From Bilabrum cf. latius (Eukaryota): a stretch of 64,000 bases of DNA. Location of the stretch: the NCBI GenBank assembly GCA_965178125.1, contig OZ237746.1:310001-374000 (forward strand), written 5' to 3'. This document shows positions 714 through 52,413 of this stretch, one piece after another. Within the stretch, counting starts at the first letter, position 1. Every line of letters starts with the position of its first letter. A model generated the notes under the pieces. That model did no database searches. It was not told the origin of the DNA and saw nothing but the letters and a program-made list of their open reading frames with translations. The translations under genes and the position numbers were made by a program.

Positions 714-2375
714 TCACTTCTCAATTTTACAGAGGAATTTGGAAAGTTTTCCTTTTTTGTTCTTTGGTGGGTTCTCTTTTATCCATTTTTGAATAGCGAT
801 GCTATTCTCAACACTCAGCTGTTTCTGGATTTTCTTATGGACTTGTTCCGTCGGTGTAATCTCCTTTTCTAATTCCAACTATTCAATCGTTTCCTACTGC
901 TATGCGACTTGTTTCTGTAGTTCTCTAATCTACTCTCGAAGAACATCTACCTCGGATTTTGCTTTTTCCATCTCAGCAGAATGACGAAGTGCCTAAAATT
1001 TAGATTGGAAGCCTTTTAGTAAGTCTGCGTGTTTCACATTAAATTCTTGTTTTCTCTATTTGTTCATCGTTGAATGAACACCTACCTCTGACAATAGTGT
1101 TTTAATCATAGGTGTACCAAGGTTCTTCACTCTACCGTTCAGTTCCTGCTTTAGATAATTGCGGAATTCCAAGACTGTCATTTTAAAATCTCTGCCTTCG
1201 TCCAGCCACTCTTCTTTTAGAATTTTTAAAACCGGATGTGCGCCATCAAGAATTCCTTTGTAAAAATTCTTTGATTTTGGTGCGAATTGTCCTGTAAAGT
1301 CTGGTGATTTATCATAGATTTCAACCAATAACATATAAAATGCCTTAGCCACTTCTGGATTTTCTGTAAAACGTTTTAGTGTTGTAAAGTATTCTTTGTC
1401 TCCTTTCTTTGATGTATTCACATCCAAAACACAATATCTACGGATTTCCTCGGTGATTTTGATTGGACTATCATTCGTATCAATAATTAGATTGAATGTA
1501 TTCGGACGACTTTCGGATTTGACAAACTTCTCATTACAGGAAAAGTGTTTTTCCGTAATAAGATTTCTTAGTGTTGCCTACATGGCGTCCCAAATAGTTG
1601 GCGAGGCTTTTGGAATTTCATTAAAATTGACTAATAGTTTCCCGTCCAGAATTGAGTTGAAGGCGTCGGGTTGAAGCATCTTGTGTGTAAGCGTCTATAG
1701 TGTAAGGGTATATCCGAGTAGTTTTCTCATAAGGAAGGTAATAATCATCGATTTACCAGTTCCTTGTGGAGATTTCAAATATAGTGCTGTTCCCAACTTC
1801 TTTCCGCCCACAATAACGTGAGCCAACCATTTCATCACAAAATCACACTATTCTTTGTCTTCTGAAGTCCACACCTTCTGGATATGTTCATAAATCATAG
1901 TCGCGCCTGCTTTTGCGTCTTCGGATAAATCCTCTATGTTTCCACAGTTTTCCCGTGTAAGTATAGGTGAACCCATAACGTTAATTGTTTGATTGTCGTA
2001 ATCCACGGTAGGTGAATTAAATTTTCTTACAATCGTAAATACGTCGGTATTCTCATTTAAGAACCAGTCTCGTGCTGACCAAGTCTTTACTCTTTTGTTG
2101 CCCACAATCGCGTAAATACAGTGTCCCCCAATCAGGTAATTTTCAGTAATATTTTTATTCGTAAGGAACTACCAGACTGGTTTCTGGGGTTCGTCATCAC
2201 TTATGTTATTCCGATTTAATTCAGATGCTATTAGAAAATACACCCCGCCACCTTGCTCGTGGGTGCGGTAGAAGTATTGTCTAAGGTATTGAATACATTC
2301 CTCTTGTTTTCCGGCATTACATAGGTCCATAAGGCTTTTTGACGAATACGCTTTAGTCGGCAGAGTGAATGACAT
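714..2375 (-). CDS. Superfamily 3 (D5-like) helicase, 553 aa with TAG=Gln
   Basis: One frame joins ORFs 2169-2375, 1848-2105 and 1056-1427 through TAG codons only. Walker A KSPQGTGKS, Walker B LVNFNE, motif C IIDTN, C-terminal coiled coil, TGA stop. Confidence 0.88.
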
Positions 2376-2389
2376 TTTTGTTGTTGTAC

Positions 2390-2421
2390 TATAGAATACG
2401 AAAATAATCCTTAAGGTACGA
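2390..2421 (-). promoter_or_regulatory. Putative promoter motif upstream of helicase gene
   Basis: Second copy of the 32-bp motif, 14 nt before the ATG at 2375. Confidence 0.6.
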
Positions 2422-2432
2422 TACGGGGCATC

Positions 2433-3488
2433 TCAATTTTCTATATCCCACTCCAAAATTAAATTAGGAGCAATTTCTTGGATTTTATTCTTTGGTTCCC
2501 ACGTCCAATGTTCTGGTTCTGGAAAATCTTTCCATTCTATTTGATATTCTGTTTCGTTCTCGGATTTTATTTTTTTTGGCAGAAAGATTGTCTGAGCATC
2601 TCGGTTATTGTCCTCATTATCAAAGTCGATAATCTGTAATTCCTCTTTTGGATAAGCCACTAAATCATCCTAATCCACAACATATAAGGGTGGTTGTCTC
2701 GGTCTTAGTAATACTTTAGTTATCGTTTTGATTTCTGGATTATAGCGTAAATCTGAAGCACGAAAATTTCCGGATAATTTTTGCTGTAAATTTGTAGCCT
2801 TTCTGGGTTCTTCTAATGGTATACGAACTCTTGTACCCTCTTCCAATATATTACAAGCGTCTCCTTTACACTACGTAAAGTCGAAGTGTTCTGGGGGTAA
2901 AGGTGGTTCTTCTATATACTTTTCTAGTTGATATTCATTATAGTTTTCAATGATGTTTGGAAGCATATCCACCCATTCTACGCTTTCATTACCTGTATTT
3001 AACTCATTAACGTTCTATAGGGTAAATATGGCTTTTCCCAACGTTTTATTTAGGTTTTCCACTAATGCTTGTTGTCGGTGGCGACCTGCTTTATTTCTTC
3101 GTACAAATACATCGCTCTCTTCTAAATATCTTTGTAAAGCGTTAAATTCTTTTCCATTATCTATTTCCAAACGGTGCTGCGGTTTCTGGACATTACCACG
3201 ATTGAAAATCTTTTTTGATGCCTTTAATACTTCGTTCTAACGCTTGGTTTTGAGCGGTTCAGCATCGGCCTACTTTGTATGTAAATCAATAGCAGTTAAT
3301 GCGTATTTATAATTATTGTCGTGGGGTAATGATAATAAATCCATTTGTACCACTTGGTGAGGTTCTGGTACATTTACGTGGGGTCGATTTACTCCTTTGG
3401 GTCGTTTTGGTCGTTTCATTAAATTTACAATACGACTGTTGGGATAAATGTTTAGGGATTGTAATATTCTTTCAAAGGCGCTACTCAT
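2433..3488 (-). CDS. Retroviral-type (rve) integrase with C-terminal chromodomain, 351 aa
   Basis: QMDLL...IDNGKEF...QALVENLNKTL DDE motifs; YQIEWKDFPEPEHWTWEP chromodomain; in-frame TAGs; TGA stop. Confidence 0.9.
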
Positions 3489-3673
3489 TTGCTATATAGT
3501 TCTTTAATAGAGGTATGCTTTTCCTTGCTTAATTTTAATATTTCTTTGTATCCTATATTGTCAAAATTTTTCAATCAATTTTTGTGTTTTTAATTGGAAA
3601 ACAATTATAATTTGTTTTTTATTTTCCTTTTAATTTTTATGGTGGCATCATAGGAATTACAACATTTAATTTT

Positions 3674-4010
3674 AATCTTTGAAAAAGATATCAAAAGAGC
3701 GGAGGGCAAAGCCCGAGCATCTTGGGAACTTAATTTATTTTTTCTAAGTCTCTTATAATTGACCTGTAAAATCTCTCAATTTTAATCTTTGAAAAAGATA
3801 TCAAAAGAGCGGAGGGCAAAGCCCGAGCATCTTGGGGGACTTTTCCAAAGGGACTTAAAATACGTTTTCGTTTTCCTTATAATGTATCATCTCTTGGGTA
3901 ATCGGTTTGGTTGCTTCGGAGAACAATTTAGTCGCTTGGGAAATCCTTGGGAAATCCAATCTTTGAAAAAGATATCAAAAGAGCGGAGGGCAAAGCCCGA
4001 GCATCTTGGG
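3674..4010. repeat. Three identical 53-bp direct repeats in the terminal region of element A
   Basis: aatctttgaaaaagatatcaaaagagcggagggcaaagcccgagcatcttggg at 3674, 3784 and 3958; internal gggc-aaa-gccc hairpin; followed by a ~3x 12-bp repeat near 4020-4058. Confidence 0.9.
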
Positions 4011-4500
4011 AAATCCTTGGTCGGTTCATCGGTCGGTTCATCGGTCGGTTTATCGGTTTGTCGCTTGGGAACATACCTCGGTCTCTTGATAAAATACCTT
4101 GTTCTCTTGGGGAAATCCTCGGTTGGTCTCTTGGTCTCTTGGGAATTCATCCTTCCGTTCCTACAGCAAACACAGAGATATTTTGGACACTTGGTTAATT
4201 TCTTCATTTTTTCCTACTTTACTAAAACATCTCTGTCTTTGCTGTTAGAGTTTATAAGGGGGTTAAATATTAGAATTCTTCAATTTACCCCTACTTCGTA
4301 GGAGTAAATTTTATATCTGAAAATGGGTACATAGAGGGGTTCTATAGGGGTTCTTGGGGAACCCCCTGTGAAATCATTTAGGTTTATAGGGGAAACACTT
4401 GAGTTGCTAAATATGCCTTTAAAGGAGGGGCGAGCGTAGCGTAGCCCTCGTCCTAAACGCTTGGTGTACCTACCACCACCTGTTGTCCCCCCCGGTTTCT

Positions 4501-4940
4501 TCACTGTTCATAACTTCAGTAGGTTCAGCCCATTCATAAACTTTTACTGTAAAAGGCTATCCATTAATTGTTAAAACACCACCTTGAAGCATTTTAAAGG
4601 TAGGTAATGAATTAGTTCCAAACCTAGATTTAAGATAAGATTGAGCGGTAATAGCATCACCTCCAGCAGTTTGAGCTGGCACTGCTTGCTCTAGTTGTAG
4701 CCTAACTGTCATACGATGACGAAGACGAATAAACCTTGATACGGTTTTACTAGTAGGATTAACGGGGAAAGAAAGGGGAAGAAGAGAATTAGATTGATTA
4801 GATGATGGTCTAATTTCTCGGCGGGTATATTTTTGAACACCTAGTTCTGTTCCTAAACTAGCATCTTCAGGGGTTATCATTTGAAGGCTTTTAGGAGCCT
4901 TAATGCTTACTGGTAAATTCTGAACCATTTGTTGAGCCAT
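4501..4940 (-). pseudogene. Major capsid protein, 5' ~146 codons, interrupted by element A
   Basis: Fourth gene of the morphogenesis cassette. Beta-strand-like N-terminus (TVSRFIRLRHRMTVRL...VLTINGQPFTV) reads through TAG 4557 and runs into element A terminal DNA at ~4500. Confidence 0.7.
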
Positions 4941-5011
4941 TTTTTTATATATACACTATAGATATAAATTTTTTAATATCTAAACATATTTTATAATCTT
5001 CTATAATTTAT

Positions 5012-5965
5012 TTAAAAATCTAAACTTAAATTATCGGTTTGTTTTTTAAATACTTGTTTAATGTGAGCTTCACCCCCGTTAAAATTCATTACGGGATACT
5101 TTTCATTTTGTTTATCAACCCAGTAGAACGCCATTGACACGCTCTTAAAGCTTCTATCCTTCATCATTGAATACCAGCGGTAAGGATTAGAAACATATAA
5201 TATATTTTCTATTGGTGAGCTGTCATTAGGATTATACGGGTAGCTGGTTAATATAGGGGATTTATTGACGGCTATAGAGCCACCAGTAGATGATTTTGTG
5301 GTCACCAATTCTTTATTCACTGGAATATCACTTTCTACGATAATAGATTTAACAGGGCACCAAGAATTTAAATTCGTCTATCTAGCCATAAAAACATAAT
5401 CACCACTAGCAGGGGAATTATTATATGAAAGTTTAGCAAATAAATCACTCGGTGTGGTTGTTATTCCTTCATATTCAAATTTATCAAATAAAGCAAAAGC
5501 TTCAAAATTAACAAATAAATAATAATTATCTCTAAAATCTTCAGTTGTTGATAAACTCCATTTATTATTTTCAAATTTAAAGACTGGTTTATCACCACTT
5601 GGAAGGCTTACCAAATCACAAATTCGGCTTAACTCTTCATTAAATTCATTTACAATATCCTAATATGAATAATAAAATTTAGCTTTTTTACCTAGAACTA
5701 TATAATCGCCTGCTCTGGCTCCTGATGTTTTATTCTCAAGAGTAAATTTTAAATAGGTTTTACCGCTGTCATCCTAATATTCAGGTTTAAACACCGGTAG
5801 CATAAATTTATTTAAATCCATCTCTTCAACAGCCGTTAAATAATTTTCACTTTGTTTTAATATTAAGCCTTCACGGGTTTCATTCACTACCGCCTATCTC
5901 GTCTAATTGTGGGGGACAGATGAACTAACTAAATTCAATCTTACAAATTCATCGCTATAACTCAT
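5012..5965 (-). CDS. Minor capsid (penton) protein, 317 aa
   Basis: ATG 5965 to TAA 5012 with TAG read as Gln; WCPVKSII-SDIPV, PYRW and FYWVDK-YP motifs; lies between protease and MCP. Confidence 0.82.
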
Positions 5966-6108
5966 TTTATTTATATATTAAAGCTATACAAATAAATATT
6001 TATTAATAAACCTTATCTAATATTTCATCTTGATTTTTACCCTTCACTTTTACCAATATATTTAAAAGTTTGATTGAATTTAGATGGATGAAAAATTGCC
6101 CTTCTAAA

Positions 6109-6240: not shown

Positions 6241-6301
6241 TTTTAGAGATAATCATATTTTATTATTTTATTCTAGCCCTTTTATTAGATGGTCGGAGTA
6301 T

Positions 6302-6877
6302 TCAATGTAGAAGCAACGCCACTAACTAATCAGGACTAAGAGCCATAATTTTGGATATTCTAAACATTTCATTTACAAACTAATCATTTGATAAGAAAGA
6401 AAAAGCGTTTCTTAATAGAGCCCATCTTCCACACGTAGCGCTGTTGTTAGCATAACTCTAAATCGGTTTATGATTATAATCAATTTTCCAACCTTCCATT
6501 TTCTAATCAATTAAATACTTTACCAGCGTATTTTCTTCTCCTTCTCCTTGATACAATTGGTCTCTATTAATAAATGGTTTCTATTGGTCGGGTTTTTCTC
6601 CATAGCTATCAAAGAAGTATATTATTTTGCTTGATGGTTTTCTGGTCAATGAAATGAAATGACCGTATGTGCTATTTAGTCCCGTCTTTTTATTAGGATA
6701 ATAAATAATTACGCCGTCATAACCATCAAAAATATGTTCAATAGATGAGGTCTATTTAATAATATCATCGTAAATAACTATTCTAGGTTTGTAATTCAAA
6801 TGTGCTACACCTAATTTTTGAATTTCTAAAGGAGATAACGGTGTTTGGACTAGTCTATTTAAGTCGTTTATGTTCAT
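6302..6877 (-). CDS. Adenain/Ulp1-like virion maturation cysteine protease, 191 aa
   Basis: His (YGHF), Asp (FFDSYG), oxyanion Gln encoded by TAG at 6458-6460 and Cys (SATCGRW); absent from the standard-code ORF track; TGA stop. Confidence 0.9.
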
Positions 6878-6885
6878 TTATATAT

Positions 6886-7956
6886 TCAATAGAGAAATAT
6901 TTTTTTTGTGCTAACTACATAATTATTATCAACATTAATAGCAACATAACCAAAGAGAGGGAGAGAATGAAGGGTTTTTTTAATTCGTTTTCTAGTAGGA
7001 GCGTCAAAACTTAAGACTGTTTCTAAAATATATTTTAAACTTTTAGCTGTAATTGTTTTATAAATGATATGGGTTGTAATTTCGTTCATAATGGTTCGTG
7101 TCTTCATACCGTCGCTTATTTTGTGGGTGATGTCTAAAACGCTACTTGCTGTGTGCCTTCCTGTAGTTGCTAGGATTTCCAATAAAAAATAAGCCTTTGC
7201 TTTCTGGTTCCTTTTTTTAAAGCCTTCGTAATCATCCAGAATAAATAAATTAGGTTCAGCGGTCAATTTTTTAAAAAACTCAACATTTAATTTAAAACCT
7301 TTTTCTATTAAATCTTTCTCAGGTTTCAAATCCTCTATCTTTCTTTCAGCTTCAATAACAACATCTAAAGGTTTAGATTTCATCAAAGAAGATTTTTTAT
7401 ATTTAAATTCTAATTTCATTTTTTTATAATAAGCCATTTTTTCCTTATATAAAGTGTTTTCATTCTCTTTAACCAAATCATCTATATCAATGAAGGTCGC
7501 GCCTTCTCTTTTATATTTAGGGTCTTGAATTGGTGATATAACATACATATTTTTATATTTTAATCCTCTATACATCCTTATATAATGTAAAGCTAAATGA
7601 CTTTTCCCGCTTCCACTCTTACCAAATAATCGCACATATTCACGCCCCTATGGAAAGAGCATAGGAAAAGGTAAATATTGACTATTATCTTTAATCGCAA
7701 ATTCCTAAACTGACCGTATATATTCATCTTGTAATAGTTTATGTAATTGTTCCCTTTTCTTGTCCTTATCAACGTTATATCTTACTCGGCTTTCTCCGTA
7801 ATAAGATTTTAAAACATCATCTGTTATCTCTTCCGCTTTGACGTGTTGAATATCTTTAGCGTTCGGGTCGTAATAAATAAACCGGTTCTATTGTGTTTTT
7901 TTATATTTTTGAATAGCTACAATATGGCTATTTTCCGTATATTGTAAAGATAGCAT
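6886..7956 (-). CDS. FtsK/HerA-family (A32-like) DNA packaging ATPase, 356 aa
   Basis: Walker A GKSGSGKS, Walker B LFILDD, TGRH motif; N-terminus extends to ATG 7956 across two TAGs. Confidence 0.9.
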
Positions 7957-8048
7957 TATATATAATAATAAAATAAAATAAACCATTTATTCACACGGGT
8001 TTAAAATATTAAGTTGGTTCCTTCTTCTATCCTTCCTCACAAAAAAAG

Positions 8049-8864
8049 TTATAGAGACATAATTATATTTTTAATTTCCGCCCGTGTTTTCCTATTTATG
8101 TATTGGTCAATCCACGATATTATCTTATTAATATTTGCTTTAGAATACTTTGAAAATTGTTTTATTATTTCCACATTTCCTAATGCTTTTCTCATTAGTC
8201 CTTTTAGGCTTTGAAATGATTTTGACTTCTCGCTTTGATGTCCTTTTATTCTTAGCATACTTTCTAATCGCATTCTTATGGAATATAAATATCCTAATGC
8301 TTCCCTATCAATTAAATCATTGACTCTTTTTTCATTCCTCTTCTCACCTCTTAATTTAAATAAATCCTTCAATCGTTTTAATACTTTAAAATTATTAGAA
8401 CCAAAGTATTTATCTACATCTCTTATTAATCCATCTTTTACCTCGTCCTAATCTATTTCATAATCACTTATATGATAAATTATGCTTATTTCATCTATAA
8501 ATTTTCCATCAAAAGCCCAAAAATCAATTTTTAAGTATGGTTTATCTCCGCTAAATATCTATTTATAAATGGTTTTAACGGGTGTAGATATGAATGCTTT
8601 TATGGTCTTGTATTTTTTATTACCAGCTTTAACCTCAATAAAATTAACCTAACTTATAAAAACCTTTACAAATCTTATTAAACTATTTATAAATTCAGGC
8701 TCTACCCTCTAATATAAATCTATATCACTAGCAAACAAGGAATAATAAGGAATAGCATACGAACCATTTAAAAATAAATTAGCCCCCTTCTTAAAATTCA
8801 CCTCATCAAATATATCGTTCTCGTATTCATTAAAATAAGCTTGTGTCAATTCATTAATTTTCAT
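8049..8864 (-). CDS. Pol-beta-superfamily nucleotidyltransferase-like protein, 271 aa
   Basis: LNGSYAIPYYSLFASDIDL fits the hGS-x(n)-DhDh signature; later LKIDF; several in-frame TAGs; TAA stop. Confidence 0.6.
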
Positions 8865-8921
8865 TATATATTATAAGTATGGATAAATAACAAATTATAT
8901 ATACCCAATATATACAATAAT

Positions 8922-9311
8922 ATGAGCGTTAAATAGAGCATAAATGATATGACAAATAAAAGCCTTCATCATCTTGGAATAAACAGAAATGATTATAAAA
9001 AAGAAATTGATAAAATGGTTGAAGATACCGCAAACCAAATATTAAACGCAACCACAAAAGGAAAGACAAAAGGGGGAGCTGTAAACTTTCTTGGTGGATA
9101 GCCGAACGTTCTCGCTGGAGGTCCCAATTATCTCGCTGGAGGAAAAAAGAAGGGTTCAAAGAAAGCCCCTAAAGCTAAAAAGCCCCGTAGTGCTAAATAG
9201 TTAAAGAGGGATAAATTAATGAAATGGTGCCGTCAAAAGGGAATGACAATGAAAGCCAGCAATGCTTTTATAAAGAAACACGACCTTATGAATAAGGATA
9301 TTTCATTTTAA
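8922..9311 (+). CDS. Small basic protein with repeated diglycine motifs (putative virion core protein), 129 aa
   Basis: ATG 8922 to TAA 9311 with three TAGs; TKGGA, FLGGQ, LAGGP, LAGGK followed by KKKGSKKAPKAKKPR. Confidence 0.7.
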
Positions 9312-9388
9312 AAGACAGCCTACCAATTGACAAATTATCTCTTAAGTTTATAAATTATTAATTATATCATTAATAATATATATATACA

Positions 9389-11467: not shown

Positions 11468-11731
11468 TTAGTCTATAGGATAATAATATTTTGTTTTGTA
11501 TAGATATATATAATGGCAGAGTTAGTAGCAACAGCAAGCACGGTTGGTGGGGTGTTGGTTCCTCTAGGATATGCGGGATGCTTCCTTTGGAACTTATGTT
11601 CCTCACTTGCGAATCGTAAAAAATTGTGTTTAGTCCTTCCACGAAAAGGAGGTAAAAGTTCACTTAACAAAAGTTTAACGTCTATAGACCCGAATATTCT
11701 ATTAGTTGATTTAGATGAAGTCCTTAAAGTT

Positions 11732-17828: not shown

Positions 17829-17831
17829 TCA
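17783..17831 (-). promoter_or_regulatory. Putative stop-codon readthrough signal: UGA-CUAG, 8-nt spacer, 38-nt stem-loop
   Basis: Minus strand TGA CTAGCCAA GGGGGCCGCGCTGGGTG-TTCA-CGCTCGGCACGGCCTCC; gag and pol are in the same frame. Confidence 0.7.
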
Positions 17832-19811
17832 GTCACCGAAGATGGACCGCCAGTCGCGATCCACATTGGGGGTGCCGTCGGCGCGGCGCCGCGACGTGTC
17901 CGGTTCCGCATCGATGTCGGCCACTCGCTGCATGCACTCGACCAGCAGTCCAGGGACACCGTTCACGGTGTCGAAGGGGGCCAGGAGCCGGGTCAGATCG
18001 GCGTGAGGCGGCGGAGAGGTGGCCGGGTCACGCCACCAGCGGCTGCCCGCTGCCCACGCCGCGCAGCTGCGGAGGCGATCACCCGCGCGCAGCACGTTCT
18101 AGCCGGGGGTGAGCTCGGAGCCCGCCGCGGTGTCATACACCCAGCACATCACCTGCTCCGGGACCGAGGTGGCCTGCCGGAGGGGAGTGGTGGTCCCCAC
18201 CGTCGCGACCATCCTTGCCATGGAGCTCGAGCGGGCCCACAGGTCACCCACCGTGCCCAGCTCCGGCGTGGCCAGGTCACGGCTGCGAGGGGCGCCTGGC
18301 TGCGAGGCGTGCCCGATGAGCGTGCGCCGCATGGCCAGGGCTTGGCACGACCGATGCACCCAGATGCCCTGCACGACTGCTGCCAGCTTGCCCGAGCCGC
18401 TGCCTGCCCCCGCCCGGAGCAGCCCGATGGTGGCGTACGGTTCACGCCGCTGCAGGGCGGACCCCAGGGCTGTCACCGCGGTGACGAAGGAGGCCAGGGC
18501 TGCCTTGCCCGCAGATGGGGCCTTCAGGGCGCGCTCGCCGGCCTTGCCACCACACACCGCGTCCACCATGGCAGCCAGGACGTCAGCGAACTAGGCAGGG
18601 CAGCGCAGGGGCTCCAGCGTGAGCAGCCTGAGGTCGTGCTCCAGAGCCGCACGAAGGAAAGTGCGGACCCCCTCGCGCACGAGGCGGCTGTCTGGGGGCG
18701 GCGCGGCCCCCGTGGCGTCGATCAGTGCGGCCGTCGTGTGAGCCAGCGAGGTGCCTGTGGGGGAGCTAGAGGGTTCAGGGACGGAGCCAGCCGTGACCGT
18801 GTACGTGGGGGGACAAGCGTCGGTTGCAACCGTCTCACCGGGGGGTTGGGCCGCCGTGGGCCGGGGGAACGCCGCCGCCTCGCCCATAGCGACGAGGAGC
18901 GGTAAGACGGAGCCGCCCTCCAGCGGGCGCTTGCGGTACAGGTCAGTGGCCTGCTGAGCCAGCTCCTGGATGGCGTCGCGTGGGGCCATAGCTGCCAGCA
19001 TGTGGAACAGACCGAGCGGGGCTGCGGGGCCGGCGGAGTACTTCAAGCCGCGCAGAATGACCTCAGCCCAGAGTGCCGGGACTCCGGTCTACAGGCGAGT
19101 CTGGAGCCGGCGGGCCGCCTCGGCGAACTCGGCACGATGGACGTCAGGTAGCGGCGGCAGGGGCCCACTCAGGGCGGGCAGCGAGCCCACATCAATGACC
19201 AGCAGGAAATCACCCATCAGCGCCGCGGCGTTGGCCAGCACGGAACGAGCGGGCCCGCGCCCAAGTGCATGCCCCGCCGACTTGCCCAGAGCCACAGCCT
19301 CATCGTCATCCGCTTGGCCCAGCGGGATCCCATCCAAAGAGCCGGCGTCCGCGTCCGGCACGGCGTCCGCCTTGGGCAGCTGAATGTCCTCACAGATAGA
19401 GTCGAGGCGCGTGGACAGCAGCGGAAAATTTGCATGCGTCACGGTCAGGAATGAAGTAACGTAGTCCCGAATCTCCGTCTGCAGGGCTTCGAATTCCGCG
19501 GACCCCAGGCTTTCGGGATCGATGGAGGCCAGCGCGATGGTCATGTCGCCAAGTCGGCGCGTCGCCCAGCGGTCATCCCAGAGGCAACGAGGCTCCGCGT
19601 CCCCAGACGATTTACTCGAGCGAGCAGCAGTCGAATCAGCTGGAGCAGCTGCGTCTGGCACTGCGGTTTGCAGCCACTTCACTGTCAACGGACCGGACAA
19701 GTCTTGCAACGGGGCCAGGATTAGCCGAAATGCCTCACCAGCCCGCCCTGTGCGGAGTGCAACCTGTACAGGGGCAACATATTCAGCCATTCCCGTAGCT
19801 GCAGAAGACAT
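17829..19811 (-). CDS. ORF1 (gag-like) of Ngaro element, 660 aa
   Basis: ATG 19811 just inside repeat A1; ORFs joined across TAGs at 19089, 18591 and 18099; TGA stop. The gag call is positional. Confidence 0.75.
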
Positions 19812-20956
19812 AGCTGCGGACAGTCCGCCCCGAATCAAAAAAACAAACAGGACGTCCCTGCGCCCGTCCCGCGCCCTCTCCCCCCCACGAGGGACAGTCC
19901 GCCCCGAATCGACTGGTTCTCCTCAGTCGCGTCTCGCGCATGCTATACCACACTCGCCACAAATGTACACGCTACCCCAATCCTTGCATCGTCTGCGCCT
20001 CCAGGCTCGCTCCGATGCCTCCCCTTCTAGTCCTGCCCCATTCTGATCTGCTGTCTCCCTACGCACCCGTACGTCTCAGCCTTCGCCAGAAATCCTACTG
20101 CCTTGTGGTCTGGCCCCACTCGGCTGCCTCCGCTGCCCCTCCCTCCCCATGGGCCTCCACGCTCCCGAGCCCTACTGGCTTGCTCGGGCCTGTCCGTGCC
20201 CCTTCGTCGTCCCCGCCACGCGTCTGGTTAACCGCGCTCGGGGCATCCCGATCCTCCCCTTTCCTCCGTTCATCTTGGAATCCCCCTCTCCGTCGCCTCC
20301 CCCGGTGCCACCCGACCCCTTGGTGGGCCGCCGCCCGTCCACCCTGTCACCTCCGCCAAGCTCCCCCGTCTGCTCCTGTCCCCCTCTCACCTGGCCCCCT
20401 CGCTGTCACCTCCCGCCGTTGTTGTCCTCCACCTGCACGTGCGCTGCTGCTGTACCCTCCCCGTCGGAGCCCCCATCGCTGTCTCACAGCCCTCAATCCC
20501 AATGTCTGATGACACAGATAAAATGCTGACACCAAACAGGTTTTATACCTAAACGAAGCAGAACGAAGAGGGGACTTATCAACGGCTAAATTATTAAAAT
20601 TTGAACTTATGAAAAAAAGTATTGAGTCTGTAAAGAAAAATTGGTTATAGAAAGCAGAACATAGAGCAGTCTTTTTAACAAGTGATTTTGAACTAGCACA
20701 AGAAATATTCAAAAAATCCAGCATATGCGTAGCTATACCCAGCGATAAACTGTATAGCAAAATCCATAAAGATTTAGATAATGAAGATAAGGATGTAGCA
20801 AGACATTCACGAGCTGAATTTTTGAAAAGTTTTAACCCTAATGAGTATAGCGTGTATAATACGTTTGAAGGGCTTTCATAGATGGTTATGTCAGTCTATA
20901 ATATGACCTACAGAGTGTAATTATTTGAATATTATTAAAATATAAATTAATAATAT

Positions 20957-22114
20957 TTATTTAGTCTTATTATTAAAATTATCCTTTAGAGTTTTTGATA
21001 TATTTTTAGCCGGCTCCGTTGTTATCTTCCATTGAATTAAATATTCATCTTGTCCCTCTTGATTCTTTCTTCTCTTTATTATTTTACCTATATCATTCTA
21101 ATATTTTCTTTTAGTAGCCTCATCAACATATGAATCTTTCCATTTAACCCTGTATGTATTATTTTTATTCTTTCTTATCAATTTTTCAATTATAAATATA
21201 TCTTGTGCTTTATTCTCGTATGGTTTAGATGCTAATAACAACTAATCTCTATTAAAGTATGTATAGGGTATGCCCTCAATTTTATATAATGGGGGGTTAT
21301 CTGGTTTTATTATTACTCTTTCAATTTTATAAGGCTTTACGCTATATTTAATATCTCCCGCCCTAAATGCTCCGGTTTCCTTTATCCCTTCTATACTTCT
21401 AGGATAATCTAATCCTATTCTTACCATTTCACCCTCATTTAATACATCACATACTTCACCCTAACATCTAGGCGGTATATATGGTAGATTCTCCCTTTTC
21501 TTATTCAACATTTCCTATCTTGTTTTATAACGCTCGTTTAATATCTCCCTCAATTTTGGTATTAAATGTCTCCAGTTCGTGATAGTTGTCCCCGTTCTTA
21601 TCTCCTATGAATTCAAATAATAAAATATAGCTCTCCCTATTTCCTCATTCAATCTCTCCACTAAAGCCATCTACGATTTACGCTTCACTCTTGAAAATAT
21701 ATGCTCTATCTTATTCTTCTTTAGATATTCTTTAAATAATTCATTATCAAATTCTCCCCCTTTATCTGTTCGTATCATTTTAGGTTTCATTAAATAATTT
21801 CTTTTATAGATTTTTTGAAAAGCTTTTATCACATCCTCCGCCCCTCTATCCTTTAACTCTTCAAAATCTAACGCTAACCCGCTCGTATCTATCACAACTA
21901 ATAAATATTTTGAATCGTTCTTGGTAGCGTAAGGGAGATACAATAAATCAGCCTATTGGATAAGCCCCTCTTTAGTAGGTTTATAATATTTAACATAATT
22001 CAATCCTTTCGGTTTCTTTATCGGCTTCATTAAATCGTTCGTGATAGACTTCGTATTAAATCCAAAACTTGACTCATTAATATCATTATCTTTTTTCTTT
22101 CCTCTCTTACTCAT
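20957..22114 (-). CDS. Second rve integrase with chromodomain-like C-terminus, 385 aa
   Basis: Q*ADLLYLP, RTDKGGEF, *MALVERLN; co-linear with the 2433-3488 integrase; TAA stop. Confidence 0.9.
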
Positions 22115-22154
22115 TATATATATTAATTGATTTTAATATTTATAAATTAATTAT

Positions 22155-22526
22155 TCACGAATTAAAAAGCCTATTAATAGCTTCATTTACTTTAATCTAT
22201 TCTTTAATTTTCCTTATCTCTTGATGAACGTCAATCAGCTTGTCCTTGTCTTTCTTTGTCAATCCAGTCATCCTTCCTTTTAATGCTTTTAAAGTTTTCA
22301 TATAAGGGGCTATAGCTTCTGCTTTCTTTTTGCTCACCTCTTTATATTCCACATTAAGAGCGGTTAATTTACTATTCACTTTATTTTTTAATTCTGTCTC
22401 TTTTATTTTTAGTTGCTTTAACTTTTGTTCTAATTCACGATTGGTCTTCTTAAAGTCTTCTACAATATCAAGAAATTCATTCTTTAACTTTGAGCGGGTA
22501 TTAATCACTTTTTGTAATTTATCCAT
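22155..22526 (-). CDS. Basic coiled-coil hypothetical protein, 123 aa
   Basis: ORF 22197-22526 extended through TAG to TGA 22155. Confidence 0.65.
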
Positions 22527-22596
22527 TTATATATAATTACTAGATATTTTTTTTATTTTTTTTAAACTATAGAATTTTATAAAACGGGTTTAATAA

Positions 22597-23700
22597 ATGA
22601 TGCCAGAGTGTACGCGCAACCTAGTCTCGTTAACAATCAGACATGGCAAGACCTGACAAAGCTGTGCCTGTGCGCGACCCTTGACCGGACTGACCGGGGC
22701 TGGGAAGAGCACGTGCACTACTCCGCCGAGGAGGAGGGGGTTGGGAGGGTGGGCAAAAATTACCCAATCTCCGCCCCTCTCCTGAACACAGAGAGGGTAT
22801 GCGCGTCATCGCAAGCAATCCGTTGGCTTGGTCGCACCTTCCCGGTCGCAACCGCCATCGGAACCCAACGAGACGTTCACGCGCTCCCACTCTGGCATCA
22901 ACACCGAACCCCATCCGGCGTTAGGATCATGATGCCAGAGTGTACGCGCAACCTAGTCTCGTTAACAATCAGACATGGCAAGACCTGACAAAGCTGTGCC
23001 TGTGCGCGACCCTTGACCGGACTGACCGGGGCTGGGAAGAGCACGTGCACTACTCCGCCAAATCTTACCGCCATGTCTTGTACGCTGCGGCTGTGTGGCT
23101 CACTCCAAGTTCAGCCGCAGCGCGCTGGCCAGCACCCACACTGGCCTGTTCAAATCGAGGCTCCTGCCGCCGAGCTCCAGAGGAGGCAAACCTTCCCTGA
23201 CGCTCCGCAAGTACACCTCGCATGCAGATGCCGACTTCCATCTGCCAAATCGCCTAATGACCTCGAAGGCGACCCCAGCACGGTCCAAACACATCACTGC
23301 CGCGATGCGGATGGAATGTCCGTGCACCGCTCCTGCAACTTCTCGTGAGCAGAAGCTGCGGAGCGCCCGTACTACCTGCGCCTTGACGATCGGCTTCGTG
23401 TTCGCCACGAAGACTGGCCCTGACGTGGGGCAGCTGAGCGCCAGCTACCGGGCGTAGTCTTCGTCTGCGCCTGCAGTTGGGGCGTGGCTCGCTGCTGCCC
23501 ACGCCACGAAGGCTCGCACGCCGCAAAAATTACCCAATCTCCGCCCCTCTCCTGAACACAGAGAGGGTATGCGCGTCATCGCAAGCAATCCGTTGGCTTG
23601 GTCGCACCTTCCCGGTCGCAACCGCCATCGGAACCCAACGAGACGTTCACGCGCTCCCACTCTGGCATCAACACCGAACCCCATCCGGCGTTAGGATCAT
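22597..23700 (-). mobile_element. Internally deleted, non-autonomous Ngaro-type element (different family from 11732-20521)
   Basis: Split direct repeats: 178 bp at 23523-23700 and 22753-22930; 131 bp at 22929-23059 and 22597-22727; encloses a YR 3' fragment; GC-rich. Confidence 0.88.
23100..23522 (-). pseudogene. Tyrosine recombinase C-terminal fragment
   Basis: GHSIRIAA...RRFGRWKS...VYLR motifs; N-terminal part missing. Confidence 0.85.
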
Positions 23701-23729
23701 TAAAATAAAATATTGGGCTACATTATAAT

Positions 23730-24146
23730 ATGTTCGTTAAGTTCCTGTTATCAAGTGTCAACGTTAAAAAGGTATTCCAGAATAAAAGCATCTCCACTTT
23801 TATGTCAATCGTATATATTTATGTTGAGAAGCACAAACCATCAATGTTAAAGCATTTTCAACTTGATGACCTTCGTGTCCCTCCAGATTGTAATGAACGA
23901 CTTAAAAAAAGAGTATTAAGTGAATTTGAAGAAATTGATTATATATCATATTTCGTTCAACCATTTAGAATAATACACAAGCTAAATGAAGAAAATGTTG
24001 AATGCCTAAGTGAAGACTTAAATGATACCGTAGCCATAGATTTATTGGTTAAAAAAGAGAAGGAAGCCATTGAGAAATCAATAAAGAAATAGAAGGATGA
24101 CATCATCAAAAAGGCTATAGATGACTTTATCTTACCCAAGGATTAA
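23730..24146 (+). CDS. Hypothetical viral protein, 138 aa
   Basis: ORF 23730-24092 extended through TAG to TAA 24146. Confidence 0.6.
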
Positions 24147-24193
24147 ACTATATATTAATAATAATAATAATAGTATTATTAAAATTCAAAAAT

Positions 24194-24541
24194 TTATTCT
24201 AAAAACTCAATATCAAACCATTCATTTGAATCATCATATTCTTCAGCATACATCAACGATAATTCTATATACTCTTCTAATTCACTATTAGTAAGGTTAT
24301 CAATTTCTTCTTCTTTCAATAGTTTGAAATCGGTTCCGTTGTCATCATTAAAACTTTCAACTTGACCTTCTGCTTCCTTTTTATATTCTTCTTTCCAATT
24401 ATCACTCCATACAACTCTCTTCGCTTGGTCTTTTAAAGTGTCAGTATAAAGCTTTTGTGCTTCTTCCTTATTATTAAACTTTTTAACCCAGTGTGTATGA
24501 TAACATTCACTACCCCACGCTAATGATACAATATAAACCAT
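24194..24541 (-). CDS. Acidic hypothetical viral protein, 115 aa
   Basis: Clean ATG-TAA ORF in AT-rich DNA. Confidence 0.65.
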   Translation of the reverse strand: MVYIVSLAWGSECYHTHWVKKFNNKEEAQKLYTDTLKDQAKRVVWSDNWKEEYKKEAEGQVESFNDDNGTDFKLLKEEEIDNLTNSELEEYIELSLMYAEEYDDSNEWFDIEFLE

Positions 24542-24582
24542 ATCTATAATAATTAAAAATAAAATAATTATTATAATAAAAC

Positions 24583-25380
24583 TTAATTAAAATTATCCTC
24601 TATCTCGTCTCGCTCCTCGTTATCCAATACCCAATCTAATCTTGAAGGGTGCCACGCTCTAGAAATTAATTCTTCTTTGATTTTTTTAGTTTGTTCAATT
24701 GTTTCATCTTTCCGCTCTTCTAATGATGGGATTAATGTCGTGGAATAATCAATTCGTTCATCCTTAATTCCATTCTCCAAATGATTAAAACTAAAACAAT
24801 TAGAAAACATACATTCCATATCTACAACATTTGAAACATCCCAGTTATTTAAAGGTTGATTTAGTGAATGGCAATCATAAAACATTCCGCACATATCTTT
24901 AACATTTGAAACGTTCCAATTATTCAATGGTTGGTTAAATGAATGGCAATCATTAAACATTTCACTCATATCTTCAACATTTGAAACATTCCAATTATTC
25001 AATGGTTGGTTAAACGAATGACACTCATTAAACATACCGCCCATATCTTCAACATTTGAAACATCCCAGTTATTTAAAGGTTGATTAAACGAATGACACC
25101 CATAAAACATATCGGTCATATCTTTAACATTTGAAACATCCCATGAATTTATTGGTGATTCAATTATCATATTATCAAATAGGTTTAACATATTCGTAAT
25201 AAATGTTGTTACTAATAATTCAGGTTTCAAAAACTACAATGCGTGAAGAAGAAAATCTGTATCTTTAGCTACGTAATATGTTTTACCTTCAAATTTCACA
25301 ATATAATTATCTTTTCTAAAATAATATTCTTTTGGTTTTGTAGCTTTCAAGGTTCCATTTTCCCATTTTAAAACTTCCAT
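24583..25380 (-). CDS. DUF285/BspA-like 25-residue repeat protein, 265 aa
   Basis: Repeats FNQPLNNWDVSNVxDMxxMF; N-terminus MEVLKWENGTLKAT paralogous to the neighbouring gene. Confidence 0.85.
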
Positions 25381-25469
25381 TCTGTATATACCTATAATAA
25401 ATATATTATTTAAGCCTTTTTAAACTCACACTATAATATTAAATAATCATTAATATTATTAAAATTCTA

Positions 25470-26492
25470 TTAATTAAAATTATCCTCTATCTCGTCTCGC
25501 TCCTCGTTATCCAATACCCAATCTAATCTTGAAGGGTGCCACGCTTTAGCAATTAATTCCTCTCTATATTTCTTTGTTTTTTTAATGGTTTTATGTTTTC
25601 GTCTTTCTAACAACGGTATCAATGTTGTAGAATAATCAATTCTTATACCCTTAATACCGTTCTCTAAATGATTGAAACTTTCACAATCTTTTAACATCTA
25701 AAACTTACTCTAGACATTGGAAACATCCCAATTATCCAATGGTTGATTGAAGTTCTAACATCCATTAAACATAGAGGATATATATTCAACGTTAGAAACA
25801 TCCCAATTACCCAATGGTTGATTGAATCTTGAACAAGAACCAAACATACCACTCATATCCCTAACATTACTAACATTCCAATCGTTCAATGATTGATTGA
25901 ATTTAGAACAAAAATGGAACATAGAGGACATATTTTCAACGTTAGAAACATCCCAATTATCCAATGGTTGATTGAAGTTCCAACATCCATTAAACATAGA
26001 GGACATATTTTCAACCTTAGAAACATCCCAATTATCCAATGGTTGATTGAATCTTGAACAAGAACCAAACATACCACTCATATCCCTAACATTACTAACA
26101 TTCCAATCGTTCAATGATTGATTGAATTTAGAACAAAAATAGAACATAGACGACATTTTTTCAACCTTAGAAACATCCCAATTGCTCAATGGTTGATTAA
26201 AGCTTCTACAACTTTGAAACATTAAACTCATATCCTTAACATTTGAAACATCCCAAGTATTCAAAGGTTCATTAAATTTATCCTATCCATTGAATACTTC
26301 ACTCATATCTGTTATGAATGTTGTTATTATTTCATAAGGTTTATAGTCCTTCAAAAACCATCTTATATAATCTTTATCCATTGCTATATGATAGGTTTTC
26401 CCTTCAAAATTAACCTAAAATCCATTTCGTTCATAATATTCTTTTGGTTGTGTAGCTTTCAAGGTTCCATTTTCCCATTTTAATAATTCCAT
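25470..26492 (-). CDS. DUF285/BspA-like repeat protein, tandem paralog, 340 aa
   Basis: ORFs 25755-26264 and 25470-25697 joined by TAGs; same N- and C-termini (AWHPSRLDWVLDNEERDEIEDNFN) as 24583-25380. Confidence 0.85.
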
Positions 26493-52383: not shown

Positions 52384-52413
52384 GCCCATAAACACTGGTC
52401 AATAACCAAAGTT

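What the first reader, a model, noticed from the sequence alone, without database searches (positions are those of the whole stretch)
714..26492. Two endogenous virophages are recoded to UAG=Gln, including at a catalytic residue
Seen: nearly every gene of both AT-rich viral elements has in-frame TAGs, no internal TAA/TGA and no frameshifts. The oxyanion-hole Gln of the maturation protease (KPI*SYANNSATCGRW) is a TAG at 6458-6460. In the second integrase, TAGs at 21953 and 21671 align with Gln in the first (Q*ADLL vs VQMDLL; KS*MALVE vs HRQQALVE). Established: mavirus-type virophages use host ribosomes and depend on a helper giant virus. Inference: these viruses are adapted to a non-standard nuclear code, would give truncated proteins in standard-code hosts, and imply a code-compatible giant virus. 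Standard gene calling misses the protease and fragments the capsid genes, so such viruses may be under-detected.
Basis: partly seen in the sequence, partly recalled or inferred. Interest (0 to 1): 0.92.

Follow-up and report, generated by a model that had tools for sequence, protein, structure and literature searches.

The report
Integrated virophage written in UAG=glutamine code
A mavirus-like virophage integrated in a protist chromosome uses the stop codon TAG as an ordinary glutamine codon, just as its host does, and related virophages in environmental DNA do the same, so standard gene finders cut these viruses into pieces.

Summary
Read with TAG as sense, 17 ORFs in the AT-rich DNA (1-11731 and 20522-~27000) carry 68 in-frame TAGs (15 of 17 ORFs) and end only in TAA or TGA. 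The gene set is mavirus-like: penton, clan-CE protease, packaging ATPase, rve-chromo integrase, D5-type helicase, pPolB start.

TAG means Gln. The protease TAG at 6458-6460 lies in a column that is Q in 144 of 150 homologues and aligns with adenain's Gln115. Three integrase-2 TAGs lie in columns that are Q in 14-15 of 16 sequences. In four metagenome contigs the orthologous genes also carry in-frame TAGs, which swap with CAA/CAG.

This is the host's own code. Eight long host ORFs (27-62 kb) carry 62 in-frame TAGs, and the Ngaro retrotransposon carries 5. "Adapted to a non-standard nuclear code" is therefore supported.

"Two virophages" is not supported as drawn. The GC-rich block is a Ngaro insertion (11732-20521) that is absent in another strain. 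The capsid gene is truncated and another ORF is split, so this copy is defective.

Endogenous viruses that follow a host's variant code have a precedent (Streblomastix). I found no report of a recoded virophage. I could not identify the host.

The parts
3..656 (-). N-terminal 218 codons of a protein-primed DNA polymerase B; the gene runs off the window start; no TAG
   Evidence: 63-64% identical to the start of 626-627-aa ORFs in L001-L004. The L001 ORF hits Pfam DNA_pol_B_2 at 2.9e-9.
714..2375 (-). D5/VapE-type helicase (DUF5906), 553 aa, 10 in-frame TAG
   Evidence: Pfam DUF5906 3.3e-15. Orthologues in L001-L004 are 55-56% identical, with TAG/CAA/CAG interchange.
2433..3488 (-). rve integrase with C-terminal chromodomain (INT1), 351 aa, 5 TAG
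   Evidence: Pfam rve 3.8e-9 and Chromo 6e-6. The L004 orthologue is 56% identical.
3501..4493 (.). Repeat-rich foreign stretch (three copies of a 53-59-nt unit) that replaces the rest of the capsid gene; a possible junction of two elements
   Evidence: Self-BLAST repeats. Contigs of all four runs break at 3501 and 4494, and word depth there is about 2-5 times that of the flanks. The frames show no capsid continuation.
4419..4940 (-). Probable major capsid protein, N-terminal remnant only (viral part about 4494-4940), 2 TAG
   Evidence: It sits after the penton in the order ATPase-protease-penton-MCP. The match to mavirus MCP 6g43/6g45 is weak and not significant (E 1.4-1.7).
5012..5965 (-). 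Penton (minor capsid) protein, 317 aa, 5 TAG
   Evidence: Mavirus minor capsid protein 6g41 at E 6.5e-24. Pfam V18-19 5.3e-7.
6302..6877 (-). Clan-CE cysteine maturation protease, 191 aa, 6 TAG; TAG at 6458-6460 is codon 140, the conserved Gln before the catalytic Cys149
   Evidence: 1174 homologues at E<=1e-3. Column 140 is Q in 144 of the best 150. AF2 model pLDDT 95.6. Foldseek hits SENP5, OtDUB, adenain, Ulp1 and mpox I7L. The profile-adenain alignment pairs H73/His54, D90/Glu71, Q140/Gln115 and C149/Cys122.
6886..7986 (-). Probable packaging ATPase (Walker A GKSGSGKS), 366 aa, 3 TAG
   Evidence: PHROG 2666 terminase large subunit 1.1e-6. No Pfam hit. Its position is upstream of the protease, as in mavirus (mavirus order recalled).
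8049..11467 (.). Three ORFs of unknown function: 8049-8864 (-), 8922-9311 (+) and 9389-11467 (+, Q/P/E-rich, 13 TAG)
   Evidence: Open only with TAG as sense. No Pfam hit.
11513..11731 (+). First 73 codons of a 205-codon ORF (motif GGKSS) cut by the Ngaro insertion; it continues at 20522-20920
   Evidence: Both pieces are in frame across the empty-site junction. The junction is seen in contigs of X2 and X6.
11732..20521 (-). Ngaro-type tyrosine-recombinase retrotransposon (65-74% GC) with split direct repeats; 5 in-frame TAG in its two large ORFs
   Evidence: Repeats 11732-11818 = 12506-12592 and 11821.. = 19837.., both 100% identical. Tyrosine recombinase 12592-13398, Pfam Phage_integrase 9.1e-7. 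RVT_1 5e-4 and RT_RNaseH 3.2e-3, both weak. The site is empty in X2 and X6.
20522..20920 (+). Second part of the split ORF, 2 TAG
20957..22114 (-). Second rve integrase (INT2), 385 aa, 7 TAG; 33% identical to INT1
   Evidence: Pfam rve 5.8e-11. BLASTP against INT1 gives 1e-43. TAG54, 148 and 291 lie in columns that are Q in 15, 14 and 15 of 16 sequences.
22155..22526 (-). Coiled-coil-like ORF of unknown function, 123 aa, 1 in-frame TAG
22597..23700 (-). Internally deleted Ngaro remnant (same repeat architecture, with a tyrosine-recombinase C-terminal fragment)
   Evidence: Repeats 22597-22727 = 22929-23059 and 22753-22930 = 23523-23700. Weak Phage_integrase hit, 0.0041.
23730..24541 (.). Two small ORFs of unknown function: 23730-24146 (+, 1 in-frame TAG) and 24194-24541 (-, no TAG)
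24583..26492 (-). Two paralogous DUF285 repeat proteins (265 aa and 340 aa; 1 and 5 TAG)
   Evidence: Pfam DUF285 5.8e-101. Repeat layout.
26493..27050 (.). AT-rich right flank up to the GC-rich host DNA; 26621-26788 repeats 6079-6245 (75% identity)
27391..62559 (-). Eight long intronless host ORFs, all on the minus strand, with 62 in-frame TAG: Arm-repeat paralogues, an FG-GAP/EGF protein, a beta-helix protein and a DDE_1 transposase
   Evidence: The ORFs are 1012-1852 aa with TAG as sense and break into pieces of 968 aa or less under the standard code. Pfam hits. Stops are TGA 6 and TAA 2.

Best explanation
The window holds about 17 kb of mavirus-like virophage DNA integrated in the nuclear genome of a GC-rich eukaryote. 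That eukaryote's own translation system reads UAG as a sense codon, most probably glutamine, and keeps UAA and UGA as stops. Virophage mRNAs are translated by host ribosomes, so the virus lineage has come to use TAG as a normal Gln codon. Under its AT-biased composition, TAG makes up 28% of its Gln codons and CAG is nearly gone.

Shown: in-frame TAGs in nearly all viral genes; TAG at conserved Gln positions, including the protease active-site Gln; TAG/CAA/CAG interchange among relatives at the DNA level; in-frame TAG in host genes and host transposons.

Inferred: the host mechanism (a tRNA-Gln with anticodon CUA and an eRF1 that no longer reads UAG), and the need for a helper giant virus that tolerates this code.

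The locus is a decaying composite. A Ngaro retrotransposon that is polymorphic between strains splits it, a second Ngaro remnant sits in it, the capsid gene is truncated, and it carries two different integrases.
For: Virophage identity: penton against mavirus 6g41 at E 6.5e-24; Pfam V18-19, rve+Chromo and DUF5906; clan-CE protease fold; pPolB through relatives.

TAG is sense: 68 TAGs in 4730 codons in 15 of 17 ORFs, with stops only TAA or TGA. Long frames cover 77% of bases against 12% under the standard code, and TAA-sense or TGA-sense controls give 24%.

TAG is Gln: protease column 140 is Q in 144 of 150 homologues and aligns to adenain Gln115. INT2 columns 54, 148 and 291 are Q in 15, 14 and 15 of 16. 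In four JGI metagenome contigs, orthologous helicase, pPolB and integrase genes carry in-frame TAGs and no other internal stop. Of 33 alignment columns with a TAG, 3 are TAG in every sequence. In the other 30, the alternative codons (each distinct codon counted once per column, 38 in all) are CAA 7 and CAG 4, against K 4, E 4, R 3, T 3, W 3 and others. Summed BLOSUM62 over 35 columns gives Q 43.3, E 17.5, K 11.4.

Not decay: 157 CAA and 31 CGA codons but no in-frame TAA or TGA. Of the 35 listed coding differences between strains, 22 are synonymous, where 20% would be expected (P 6e-8).

Host code: eight host ORFs carry 62 TAGs and the Ngaro ORFs carry 5. Opposite TAG in the Arm paralogues, Q is the commonest residue: 19 of 113 non-gap residues, and 4 of 6 where the flanks align well, against a background Q frequency of 3.4%.
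Against: No tRNA of any kind was found in the window or in L001-L004, and there was no Rfam hit, so the decoding mechanism is unseen.

The host's TAG meaning rests on few well-aligned paralogue columns (4 Q and 2 E of 6). Glu is the runner-up everywhere, and several viral TAG columns are E-rich (protease 99, 166, 184).

Many TAGs sit in variable columns that say nothing: INT1 against distant homologues gives A, S, L/M and G, and the pPolB N-terminus is uninformative.

Some database proteins were evidently called with TAG read as Q. The window's own INT2 appears full-length as P0181, so the Q's in the near-identical Logan/ENA proteins P0001, P0002 and P0160 may be circular and are not counted as evidence.

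No RNA or protein data were available. I did not identify the host organism and no whole genome was held.
Confidence: 0.85

Rival explanations
1. The TAGs are decay. The elements are dead pseudogenes in which CAG mutated to TAG (C-to-T) after integration.
For: CAG is rare (18) beside 68 TAG in the viral ORFs. The copy is visibly damaged by transposons.
Against: The same C-to-T process would turn CAA into TAA and CGA into TGA, yet there are 157 CAA, 31 CGA and no in-frame TAA or TGA in 4730 codons. There are no frameshifts and ORF lengths equal those of homologues. Strain differences are mostly synonymous (22 of 35, tested). TAG at helicase column 266 is kept in all five sequences, which are 56% identical at the protein level.
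Confidence: 0.02
2. TAG is sense but not glutamine (for example Glu), or it is ambiguous and context-dependent (sense inside genes, stop at gene ends).
For: Glu is second in every tally: protease columns 99, 166 and 184 are E-rich; host paralogues give Q 19 against E 15; TAG/GAG differences occur at helicase column 499 and at position 10253.
Against: At near-invariant columns the residue is Q, not E: protease 144 Q against 1 E of 150; INT2 15, 14 and 15 of 16. At the DNA level TAG swaps with CAA/CAG (11) more often than with GAA/GAG (4). No ORF in the window ends in TAG: 0 of 16 viral, 0 of 8 host, 0 of 2 Ngaro.
Confidence: 0.07
3. The recoding belongs to the virus, as in TAG=Gln (code 15) phages whose hosts use the standard code, and is not the host's code.
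For: Viral TAG use (28% of Gln codons) is higher than the host's (15%). TAG-reading phages are known (PMC9523058, abstract seen in the listing).
Against: Eight host ORFs of 1012-1852 aa are open only with TAG as sense (62 TAGs), and so is the GC-rich Ngaro. No suppressor tRNA gene lies in the viral DNA or in L001-L004.
Confidence: 0.03
4. A standard-code virophage integrated, and the TAGs arose afterwards by neutral CAR-to-TAG drift inside a host where they are harmless. The free virus lineage never replicated under this code.
For: In this host such changes are synonymous and AT pressure would favour them. The copy is endogenous and no RNA holder was listed (that is no evidence on expression).
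Against: Relatives only 55-56% identical, found on metagenome contigs, also carry in-frame TAGs: 4-5 in each helicase and 8-10 in each pPolB frame. One TAG position is shared by all five. Protease relatives 71-73% identical stop exactly before TAG99. TAG use therefore predates the divergence of these lineages. Those contigs could still be other endogenous copies in related hosts.
Confidence: 0.08

Closest known systems
Mavirus and the endogenous mavirus-like elements (EMALEs) of Cafeteria burkhardae (Hackl et al. 2021, PMC8547959, passages read)
   Same: The penton is clearly homologous to mavirus's. The gene set is the same: rve integrase, helicase, pPolB, ATPase, clan-CE protease, penton and MCP. 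AT-rich elements sit in a GC-rich host. GC-rich Ngaro retrotransposons with the A1-[ORFs]-B1A2B2 layout are inserted into the virophage DNA. A TCTA-containing motif lies upstream of genes.
   Different: The genes here are written with TAG=Gln. For Cafeteria the one passage I read mentions only a mitochondrial code change, and that its nuclear code is standard is my recollection. This copy has two different integrases, a truncated MCP and a split ORF. The terminal inverted repeats could not be checked because the left end lies outside the window.
Endogenous polinton-like virus elements of Streblomastix strix that use the host's TAA/TAG=Gln code (Bellas et al. 2023, PMC10120064, passage read)
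   Same: Integrated small DNA viruses of the polinton/virophage supergroup whose genes follow the host's non-standard stop-codon reassignment.
   Different: There both TAA and TAG are Gln, and the MCPs belong to a metamonad PLV group. Here only TAG is reassigned, the element is mavirus-like, and free-standing metagenome relatives share the code.
UAG=Gln nuclear code with UAA and UGA kept as stops, as in Iotanema spirale (Panek et al. 2017, PMC5304391, abstract read)
   Same: The same code variant: UAG is sense (Gln) while UAA and UGA terminate.
   Different: That organism is an anaerobic fornicate known from a transcriptome, and the abstract mentions no virus. The host here is an unidentified GC-rich eukaryote with intronless same-strand genes and Ngaro elements.
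TAG=Gln (code 15) bacteriophages such as crAss-like phages (PMC9523058, abstract seen in the listing)
   Same: A virus whose genes need TAG read as Gln, and which standard gene callers fragment.
   Different: Those phages differ from their hosts' code. Here virus and host agree, and no viral suppressor tRNA was found.
Giant-virus metagenome genomes better called with alternative codes (PMC13524828, passages read)
   Same: They suggest that nucleocytoviruses of hosts with non-standard codes exist, which is the kind of helper this virophage would need.
   Different: That paper states that all confirmed giant-virus isolates come from standard-code hosts. The word 'virophage' does not occur in it. 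No link to this lineage is shown.

Membership tests
Mavirus-type virophage | Penton (minor capsid) protein homologous to mavirus/Sputnik pentons | tested here: met
   6g41 mavirus minor capsid protein at E 6.5e-24 over residues 22-294. Pfam V18-19 at 29.2 bits, cut-off 27.
Mavirus-type virophage | Double jelly-roll major capsid protein | tested here: inconclusive
   Only about 149 codons remain before the foreign stretch. The match to mavirus MCP has E 1.4-1.7.
Mavirus-type virophage | Clan-CE (adenain/Ulp1-like) cysteine maturation protease | tested here: met
   Model pLDDT 95.6. 34 PDB chains at E<=1e-3, all those listed being clan-CE or related proteases. H73, D90, Q140 and C149 are conserved.
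Mavirus-type virophage | FtsK/HerA-type packaging ATPase | tested here: inconclusive
   Only a PHROG terminase-large-subunit hit at 1.1e-6 and a Walker A motif. No Pfam hit.
Mavirus-type virophage | Replication/integration module: rve integrase, helicase, protein-primed PolB | tested here: met
   rve+Chromo and DUF5906. The pPolB N-terminus is identified through L001-L004. INT-HEL-pPolB synteny is seen whole in L004, and HEL-pPolB in L001-L003.
Mavirus-type virophage | Terminal inverted repeats and dependence on a giant virus | not testable with these tools
   The left end lies outside the window. No long inverted repeats were found inside it. The only hint is a TCTAT motif upstream of 9 of 17 ORFs.
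Ngaro (DIRS-order) retrotransposon | Split direct repeats A1-[ORFs]-B1A2B2 and a tyrosine recombinase in place of an rve integrase | tested here: met
   Repeat layout on the minus strand. Phage_integrase at 29.2 bits, cut-off 27.1. RT and RNase H hits fall below their cut-offs. The definition comes from the Hackl 2021 passage.
Nuclear code with UAG=Gln and UAA/UGA as stops (NCBI table 15 pattern; Iotanema-type) | In-frame UAG in host nuclear genes | tested here: met
   62 TAGs in eight host ORFs of 1012-1852 aa.
Nuclear code with UAG=Gln and UAA/UGA as stops (NCBI table 15 pattern; Iotanema-type) | UAG positions align with Gln | tested here: met
   Strong for the viral genes. Only moderate for host genes.
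Nuclear code with UAG=Gln and UAA/UGA as stops (NCBI table 15 pattern; Iotanema-type) | UAA and UGA still terminate | tested here: met
   All 26 ORF ends are TAA or TGA. Making TAA or TGA sense does not lengthen the longest frames.
Nuclear code with UAG=Gln and UAA/UGA as stops (NCBI table 15 pattern; Iotanema-type) | tRNA-Gln(CUA) and an altered eRF1 | not testable with these tools
   No tRNA in the window. No whole genome was held.

The most novel reading that the evidence does not exclude
This is one member of a whole environmental clade of virophages that live in a UAG=Gln translation system. By implication their giant-virus helpers and a little-known protist lineage do too. The clade is already present in public metagenomes but hidden, because standard gene callers cut its genes at TAG. 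These virophage genes could serve as bait to find the first giant virus of a host with a non-standard code.
Probability: 0.45. Interest if true: 0.8.

Novelty: new variant of a known kind. Interest (0 to 1): 0.68.

Why it matters
A virophage needs both a cell and a giant virus. One written in UAG=Gln therefore points to three partners sharing a rare nuclear code. By the one paper I read on the subject, every isolated giant virus comes from a standard-code host.

It also exposes a practical blind spot. In public protein collections the relatives of these genes appear as stumps that end exactly at TAG. Virophage and polinton-like virus surveys that use standard or bacterial tables will undercount this lineage.

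The UAG-only reassignment is itself rare among eukaryotes. A further host with it, if not already described, would be of interest for how UAG and UAA decoding become uncoupled.

Tried and rejected

I sent that protein to no other tool afterwards, so the host taxon stays open. The window has no tRNA and no Rfam hit.

3. IMG/VR scans found nothing with the penton, helicase alignment A1 or protease homologue P0012. Protease alignments A2 and A3 were too variable to search with. A tblastn of the ATPase against the phage collection gave no match.

4. The protease and the MCP fragment gave no significant hit against PDB by single-sequence search. The single-sequence AF2 model of the protease was useless (pLDDT 44) and was replaced by the alignment-based model.

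5. The DUF285 internal repeats do not show what TAG means, because the TAGs sit in variable positions.

6. No RNA holder was listed among the sequencing runs, so expression could not be addressed.

7. No terminal inverted repeats were found. The left end lies outside the window.

8. Literature searches for recoded virophages (passages checked) found only the Streblomastix EVE precedent. Searches for a stramenopile or a heterotrophic flagellate with UAG=Gln found nothing relevant.

9. I considered Cafeteria and Halocafeteria as hosts and rejected both. The host DNA here is 55-62% GC, and from recollection Cafeteria's genome is more GC-rich and its nuclear code is standard; the one passage I read names only a mitochondrial code change. 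Halocafeteria is said to lack Ngaro.

Full report
**Layout**

The window has AT-rich DNA (26-41% GC) at 1-~11700 and ~20500-27000. A 64-74% GC block lies between them, and 50-63% GC DNA follows to the end.

With TAG read as sense, the AT-rich parts resolve into 17 ORFs:
- On the minus strand: the start of a gene that runs off the window (3-656), a DUF5906 helicase (714-2375), an rve+chromodomain integrase (2433-3488), a 173-codon ORF (4419-4940), a penton protein (5012-5965), a 191-aa protease (6302-6877), a probable packaging ATPase (6886-7986) and an unknown ORF (8049-8864).
- On the plus strand: two ORFs (8922-9311, 9389-11467).
- Beyond the GC-rich block: a second integrase (20957-22114), small ORFs and two DUF285 repeat proteins (24583-26492).

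The annotations come from Pfam. The penton matches the mavirus minor capsid protein 6g41 at E 6.5e-24. This is mavirus-like virophage DNA.

**The observation**

The 17 ORFs hold 4730 codons with 68 in-frame TAGs, in 15 of 17 ORFs. The 16 that end inside the window stop at TAA (11) or TGA (5) and never at TAG.

ORFs were delimited by TAA and TGA, so the absence of internal TAA/TGA is partly by construction. The control that matters is ORF length. In 1-11731, stop-to-stop frames of 200 aa or more cover 12% of the bases under the standard code and 77% with TAG as sense. With TAA or TGA as sense they cover only 24%.

ORF lengths equal those of homologues.

**What TAG encodes**

1. Protease. An exhaustive HMMER search gave 1174 homologues at E<=1e-3. 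In an alignment of the best 150, the TAG at residue 140 falls in a column that is Q in 144. In a 125-sequence alignment, G72, H73, C149 and G150 are invariant, and D90 and Q140 are conserved at 90% or more. An AlphaFold model built on that alignment has pLDDT 95.6. It matches SENP5, OtDUB, adenovirus protease, Ulp1 and mpox I7L, so it is a clan-CE protease. The family profile aligns to adenain (E 0.02, weak) with H73/His54, D90/Glu71, Q140/Gln115 and C149/Cys122. That Gln115 forms adenain's oxyanion hole is my recollection and comes from no call. The other protease TAG columns are mixed: E49/Q30, S63/A26, E58/Q40, E62/D19/Q10, and one falls in a gap.

2. Integrase 2. Against 15 database homologues plus integrase 1, TAG54, TAG148 and TAG291 sit in columns that are Q in 15, 14 and 15 of 16 sequences. 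The four other TAGs sit in variable or gapped columns. Integrase 1's five TAGs lie in variable columns against distant homologues (A, A/S, L/M, gap, G).

3. DNA-level test. A scan of JGI metagenome contigs with a 56%-identical helicase (P0004) returned four contigs, L001-L004. L004 carries integrase, helicase and a 626-aa pPolB in the window's order; L001-L003 carry the helicase and a 627-aa pPolB (L001 Pfam DNA_pol_B_2, 2.9e-9). This identifies window ORF 3-656 as the pPolB N-terminus. Their helicases have 4-5 in-frame TAGs, no TAA or TGA, and end in TGA. Across helicase, pPolB and integrase alignments, 33 columns contain a TAG. Three are TAG in every sequence. In the remaining 30, the distinct alternative codons are CAA 7, CAG 4, then K 4, E 4, R 3, T 3, W 3 and singletons. 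For example, window TAGs at helicase columns 176 and 227 face CAG/CAA in all four contigs. Column 266 is TAG in all five. Column 443 is CAA in the window and TAG in the four contigs.

Summed BLOSUM62 over 35 informative columns gives Q 43.3, E 17.5 and K 11.4. Gln is clearly the best reading and Glu is the only serious alternative.

**A caveat on database proteins**

Near-identical proteins from Logan/ENA (P0001, P0002, P0160) show Q at almost every window TAG. But the collection evidently calls some contigs with TAG as sense. The window's own integrase 2 is stored full-length (P0181), and one 90% cluster holds both a 98-aa and a 191-aa form of a protease. I therefore do not count those Q's.

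The truncated forms are informative, though. P0009 and P0010, 71-73% identical to the protease, end at residue 98, just before the window's TAG99. The 247- and 260-aa forms in the P0004 cluster (P0168-P0170), mostly held by JGI/IMG, end just before column 266 while reading Q at columns 176 and 227. Standard-code calling really does cut this lineage at TAG.

**Decay is excluded**

C-to-T decay that turned most CAG into TAG should also make TAA from CAA and TGA from CGA. There are 157 CAA, 31 CGA and no in-frame TAA or TGA.

Four sequencing runs carrying two coded organism names hold the element at 99% identity or more. Of the 40 differences listed (179 more were not shown), 35 lie in ORFs and 22 of these are synonymous. 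About 20% would be expected for random changes, or 34% for transitions only; P is 6e-8 or 4e-4. One listed difference is TAG to GAG.

**The code is the host's**

From 27 kb to 62 kb there are eight minus-strand ORFs of 1012-1852 aa that are open only with TAG as sense. They carry 62 TAGs and stop at TGA (6) or TAA (2). They include five Arm-repeat paralogues, an FG-GAP/EGF protein, a beta-helix protein and a DDE_1 transposase. The GC-rich retrotransposon ORFs carry 5 TAGs.

Among the Arm paralogues, the residues opposite TAG are most often Q: 19 of 113 non-gap residues, with E at 15. Where the flanks align well, the count is 4 Q and 2 E of 6, against a background Q frequency of 3.4%. TAG is 15% of host Gln codons and 28% of viral ones, with CAG almost lost from the AT-rich viral genes. 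That fits long residence under this code.

UAG=Gln with UAA and UGA kept as stops is a rare nuclear variant, described for Iotanema spirale (abstract). I could not identify the host.

**One element or two**

The GC-rich block is a Ngaro-type retrotransposon on the minus strand.
- Split direct repeats: 11732-11818 = 12506-12592 and 11821.. = 19837.., both 100% identical.
- A tyrosine recombinase (12592-13398; Pfam 9.1e-7).
- Weak RT and RNase H hits.
- This matches the A1-[ORFs]-B1A2B2 layout described for Ngaro elements that invade Cafeteria virophages (Hackl 2021, passage).

In runs X2 and X6, a contig reads through 11731 into 20 letters that occur in the window at 20522-20541. This is the empty site. 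Across it, a 205-codon ORF (11513-11731 + 20522-20920) is in frame.

The AT-rich DNA is therefore one tract split by a recent insertion that is polymorphic between strains. It is not two elements separated by host DNA. A second, internally deleted Ngaro sits at 22597-23700.

The capsid gene is cut after about 149 codons by a repeat-rich stretch (3501-4493), where contigs of all runs break and word depth rises. There are two integrases, only 33% identical, and the order ATPase-protease-penton-MCP | integrase-helicase-pPolB looks like a head-to-tail junction. So two elements may abut at about 3501-4493. The data cannot decide, because the left end is outside the window and no terminal inverted repeats were found. 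Either way, this copy is defective.

**Giant-virus link**

TCTAT occurs within 80 nt upstream of 9 of 17 viral ORFs, and in five of them at -16 to -25. Random 80-nt windows of the same DNA contain it 16.7% of the time (binomial 7e-4). I chose the motif after looking, so this P is generous. It resembles the 'TCTA' CroV late-promoter motif of mavirus-type elements (passage). This is a hint of giant-virus dependence, not a test.

A 2026 catalogue reports giant-virus metagenome genomes that are better called with alternative codes. It also states that all isolates come from standard-code hosts (passages).

**Novelty**

Bellas et al. 2023 noted that endogenous PLV-type elements of Streblomastix strix use that host's TAA/TAG=Gln code (passage). 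The principle that endogenous small DNA viruses follow a variant host code therefore has a precedent.

My searches for a virophage with a non-standard code (with passages checked) found none.

I rate this a new variant of a known kind: a mavirus-like lineage, with environmental relatives, written in a UAG-only reassigned code.

Noticed in passing
window 11732-20521 and 22597-23700: A full-length Ngaro retrotransposon and an internally deleted one, both inserted in the virophage DNA. The full one has 100%-identical repeats and is absent from the same site in runs X2 and X6, so it looks like a very recent insertion. This parallels the Ngaro preference for virophage DNA reported in Cafeteria.
   Followed up: yes
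window 15778-16944: At least 18 tandem copies of a 51-nt unit inside the large Ngaro ORF, encoding the repeat GVSRGGGVESRQEIVE(D/G/S).
   Followed up: no
window 27391-62559: Five tandem paralogues of a large protein with a kinase-like N-terminal region and many Arm repeats, all on the minus strand with short spacers and no obvious introns. This is a lineage-specific gene family expansion next to the virophage.
   Followed up: partly
window 45015-48191: A DDE_1 (pogo/Tigger-like) transposase ORF of 1058 aa with 16 in-frame TAGs, the highest TAG density among the non-viral ORFs. It lies next to a lower-GC (46%) stretch at 44-45 kb.
   Followed up: no
window 6079-6245 and 26621-26788: A roughly 170-nt sequence between the penton and protease genes recurs at 75% identity in the right flank of the AT-rich tract. 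Word depth doubles over the first copy in all runs, so it may be a small mobile or regulatory repeat.
   Followed up: partly
window 3501-4493: A repeat-rich stretch with three copies of a 53-59-nt unit, present at higher depth than the virophage in all four runs. To the left of 4494, contigs of X2 and X5 continue into a different, GC-rich sequence.
   Followed up: partly
upstream of viral ORFs, e.g. window 657-680, 2376-2400, 3489-3515, 4941-4965, 6878-6895: A TCTAT(A) motif 16-25 nt upstream of the start codons of pPolB, helicase, integrase 1, MCP and protease, and further upstream of four more ORFs. It resembles the CroV/mavirus late promoter.
   Followed up: partly
L001 4035-5411; L003 4057-5433 and 5437-6813: In the metagenome relatives, the pPolB gene is followed by a very AT-rich (14-29% GC) region that encodes an Eco57I-like N6-adenine DNA methyltransferase, duplicated in tandem in L003.
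   Followed up: no
window 37084-40122 and 62961-63998: A beta-helix protein with four exact copies of a 33-aa repeat, and a partial ORF with the repeated unit GDSRHPVAEALGVSSASRGARDGKH. Both may be assembly-sensitive tandem repeats.
   Followed up: no
runs X2, X5, X6 on window 8924-11488: A low-depth contig (23-43, against about 400-700 for the main element) matches window 9337-9891 at about 83% identity and further pieces of 8924-11488. This is a second, diverged virophage copy in the same samples.
   Followed up: no
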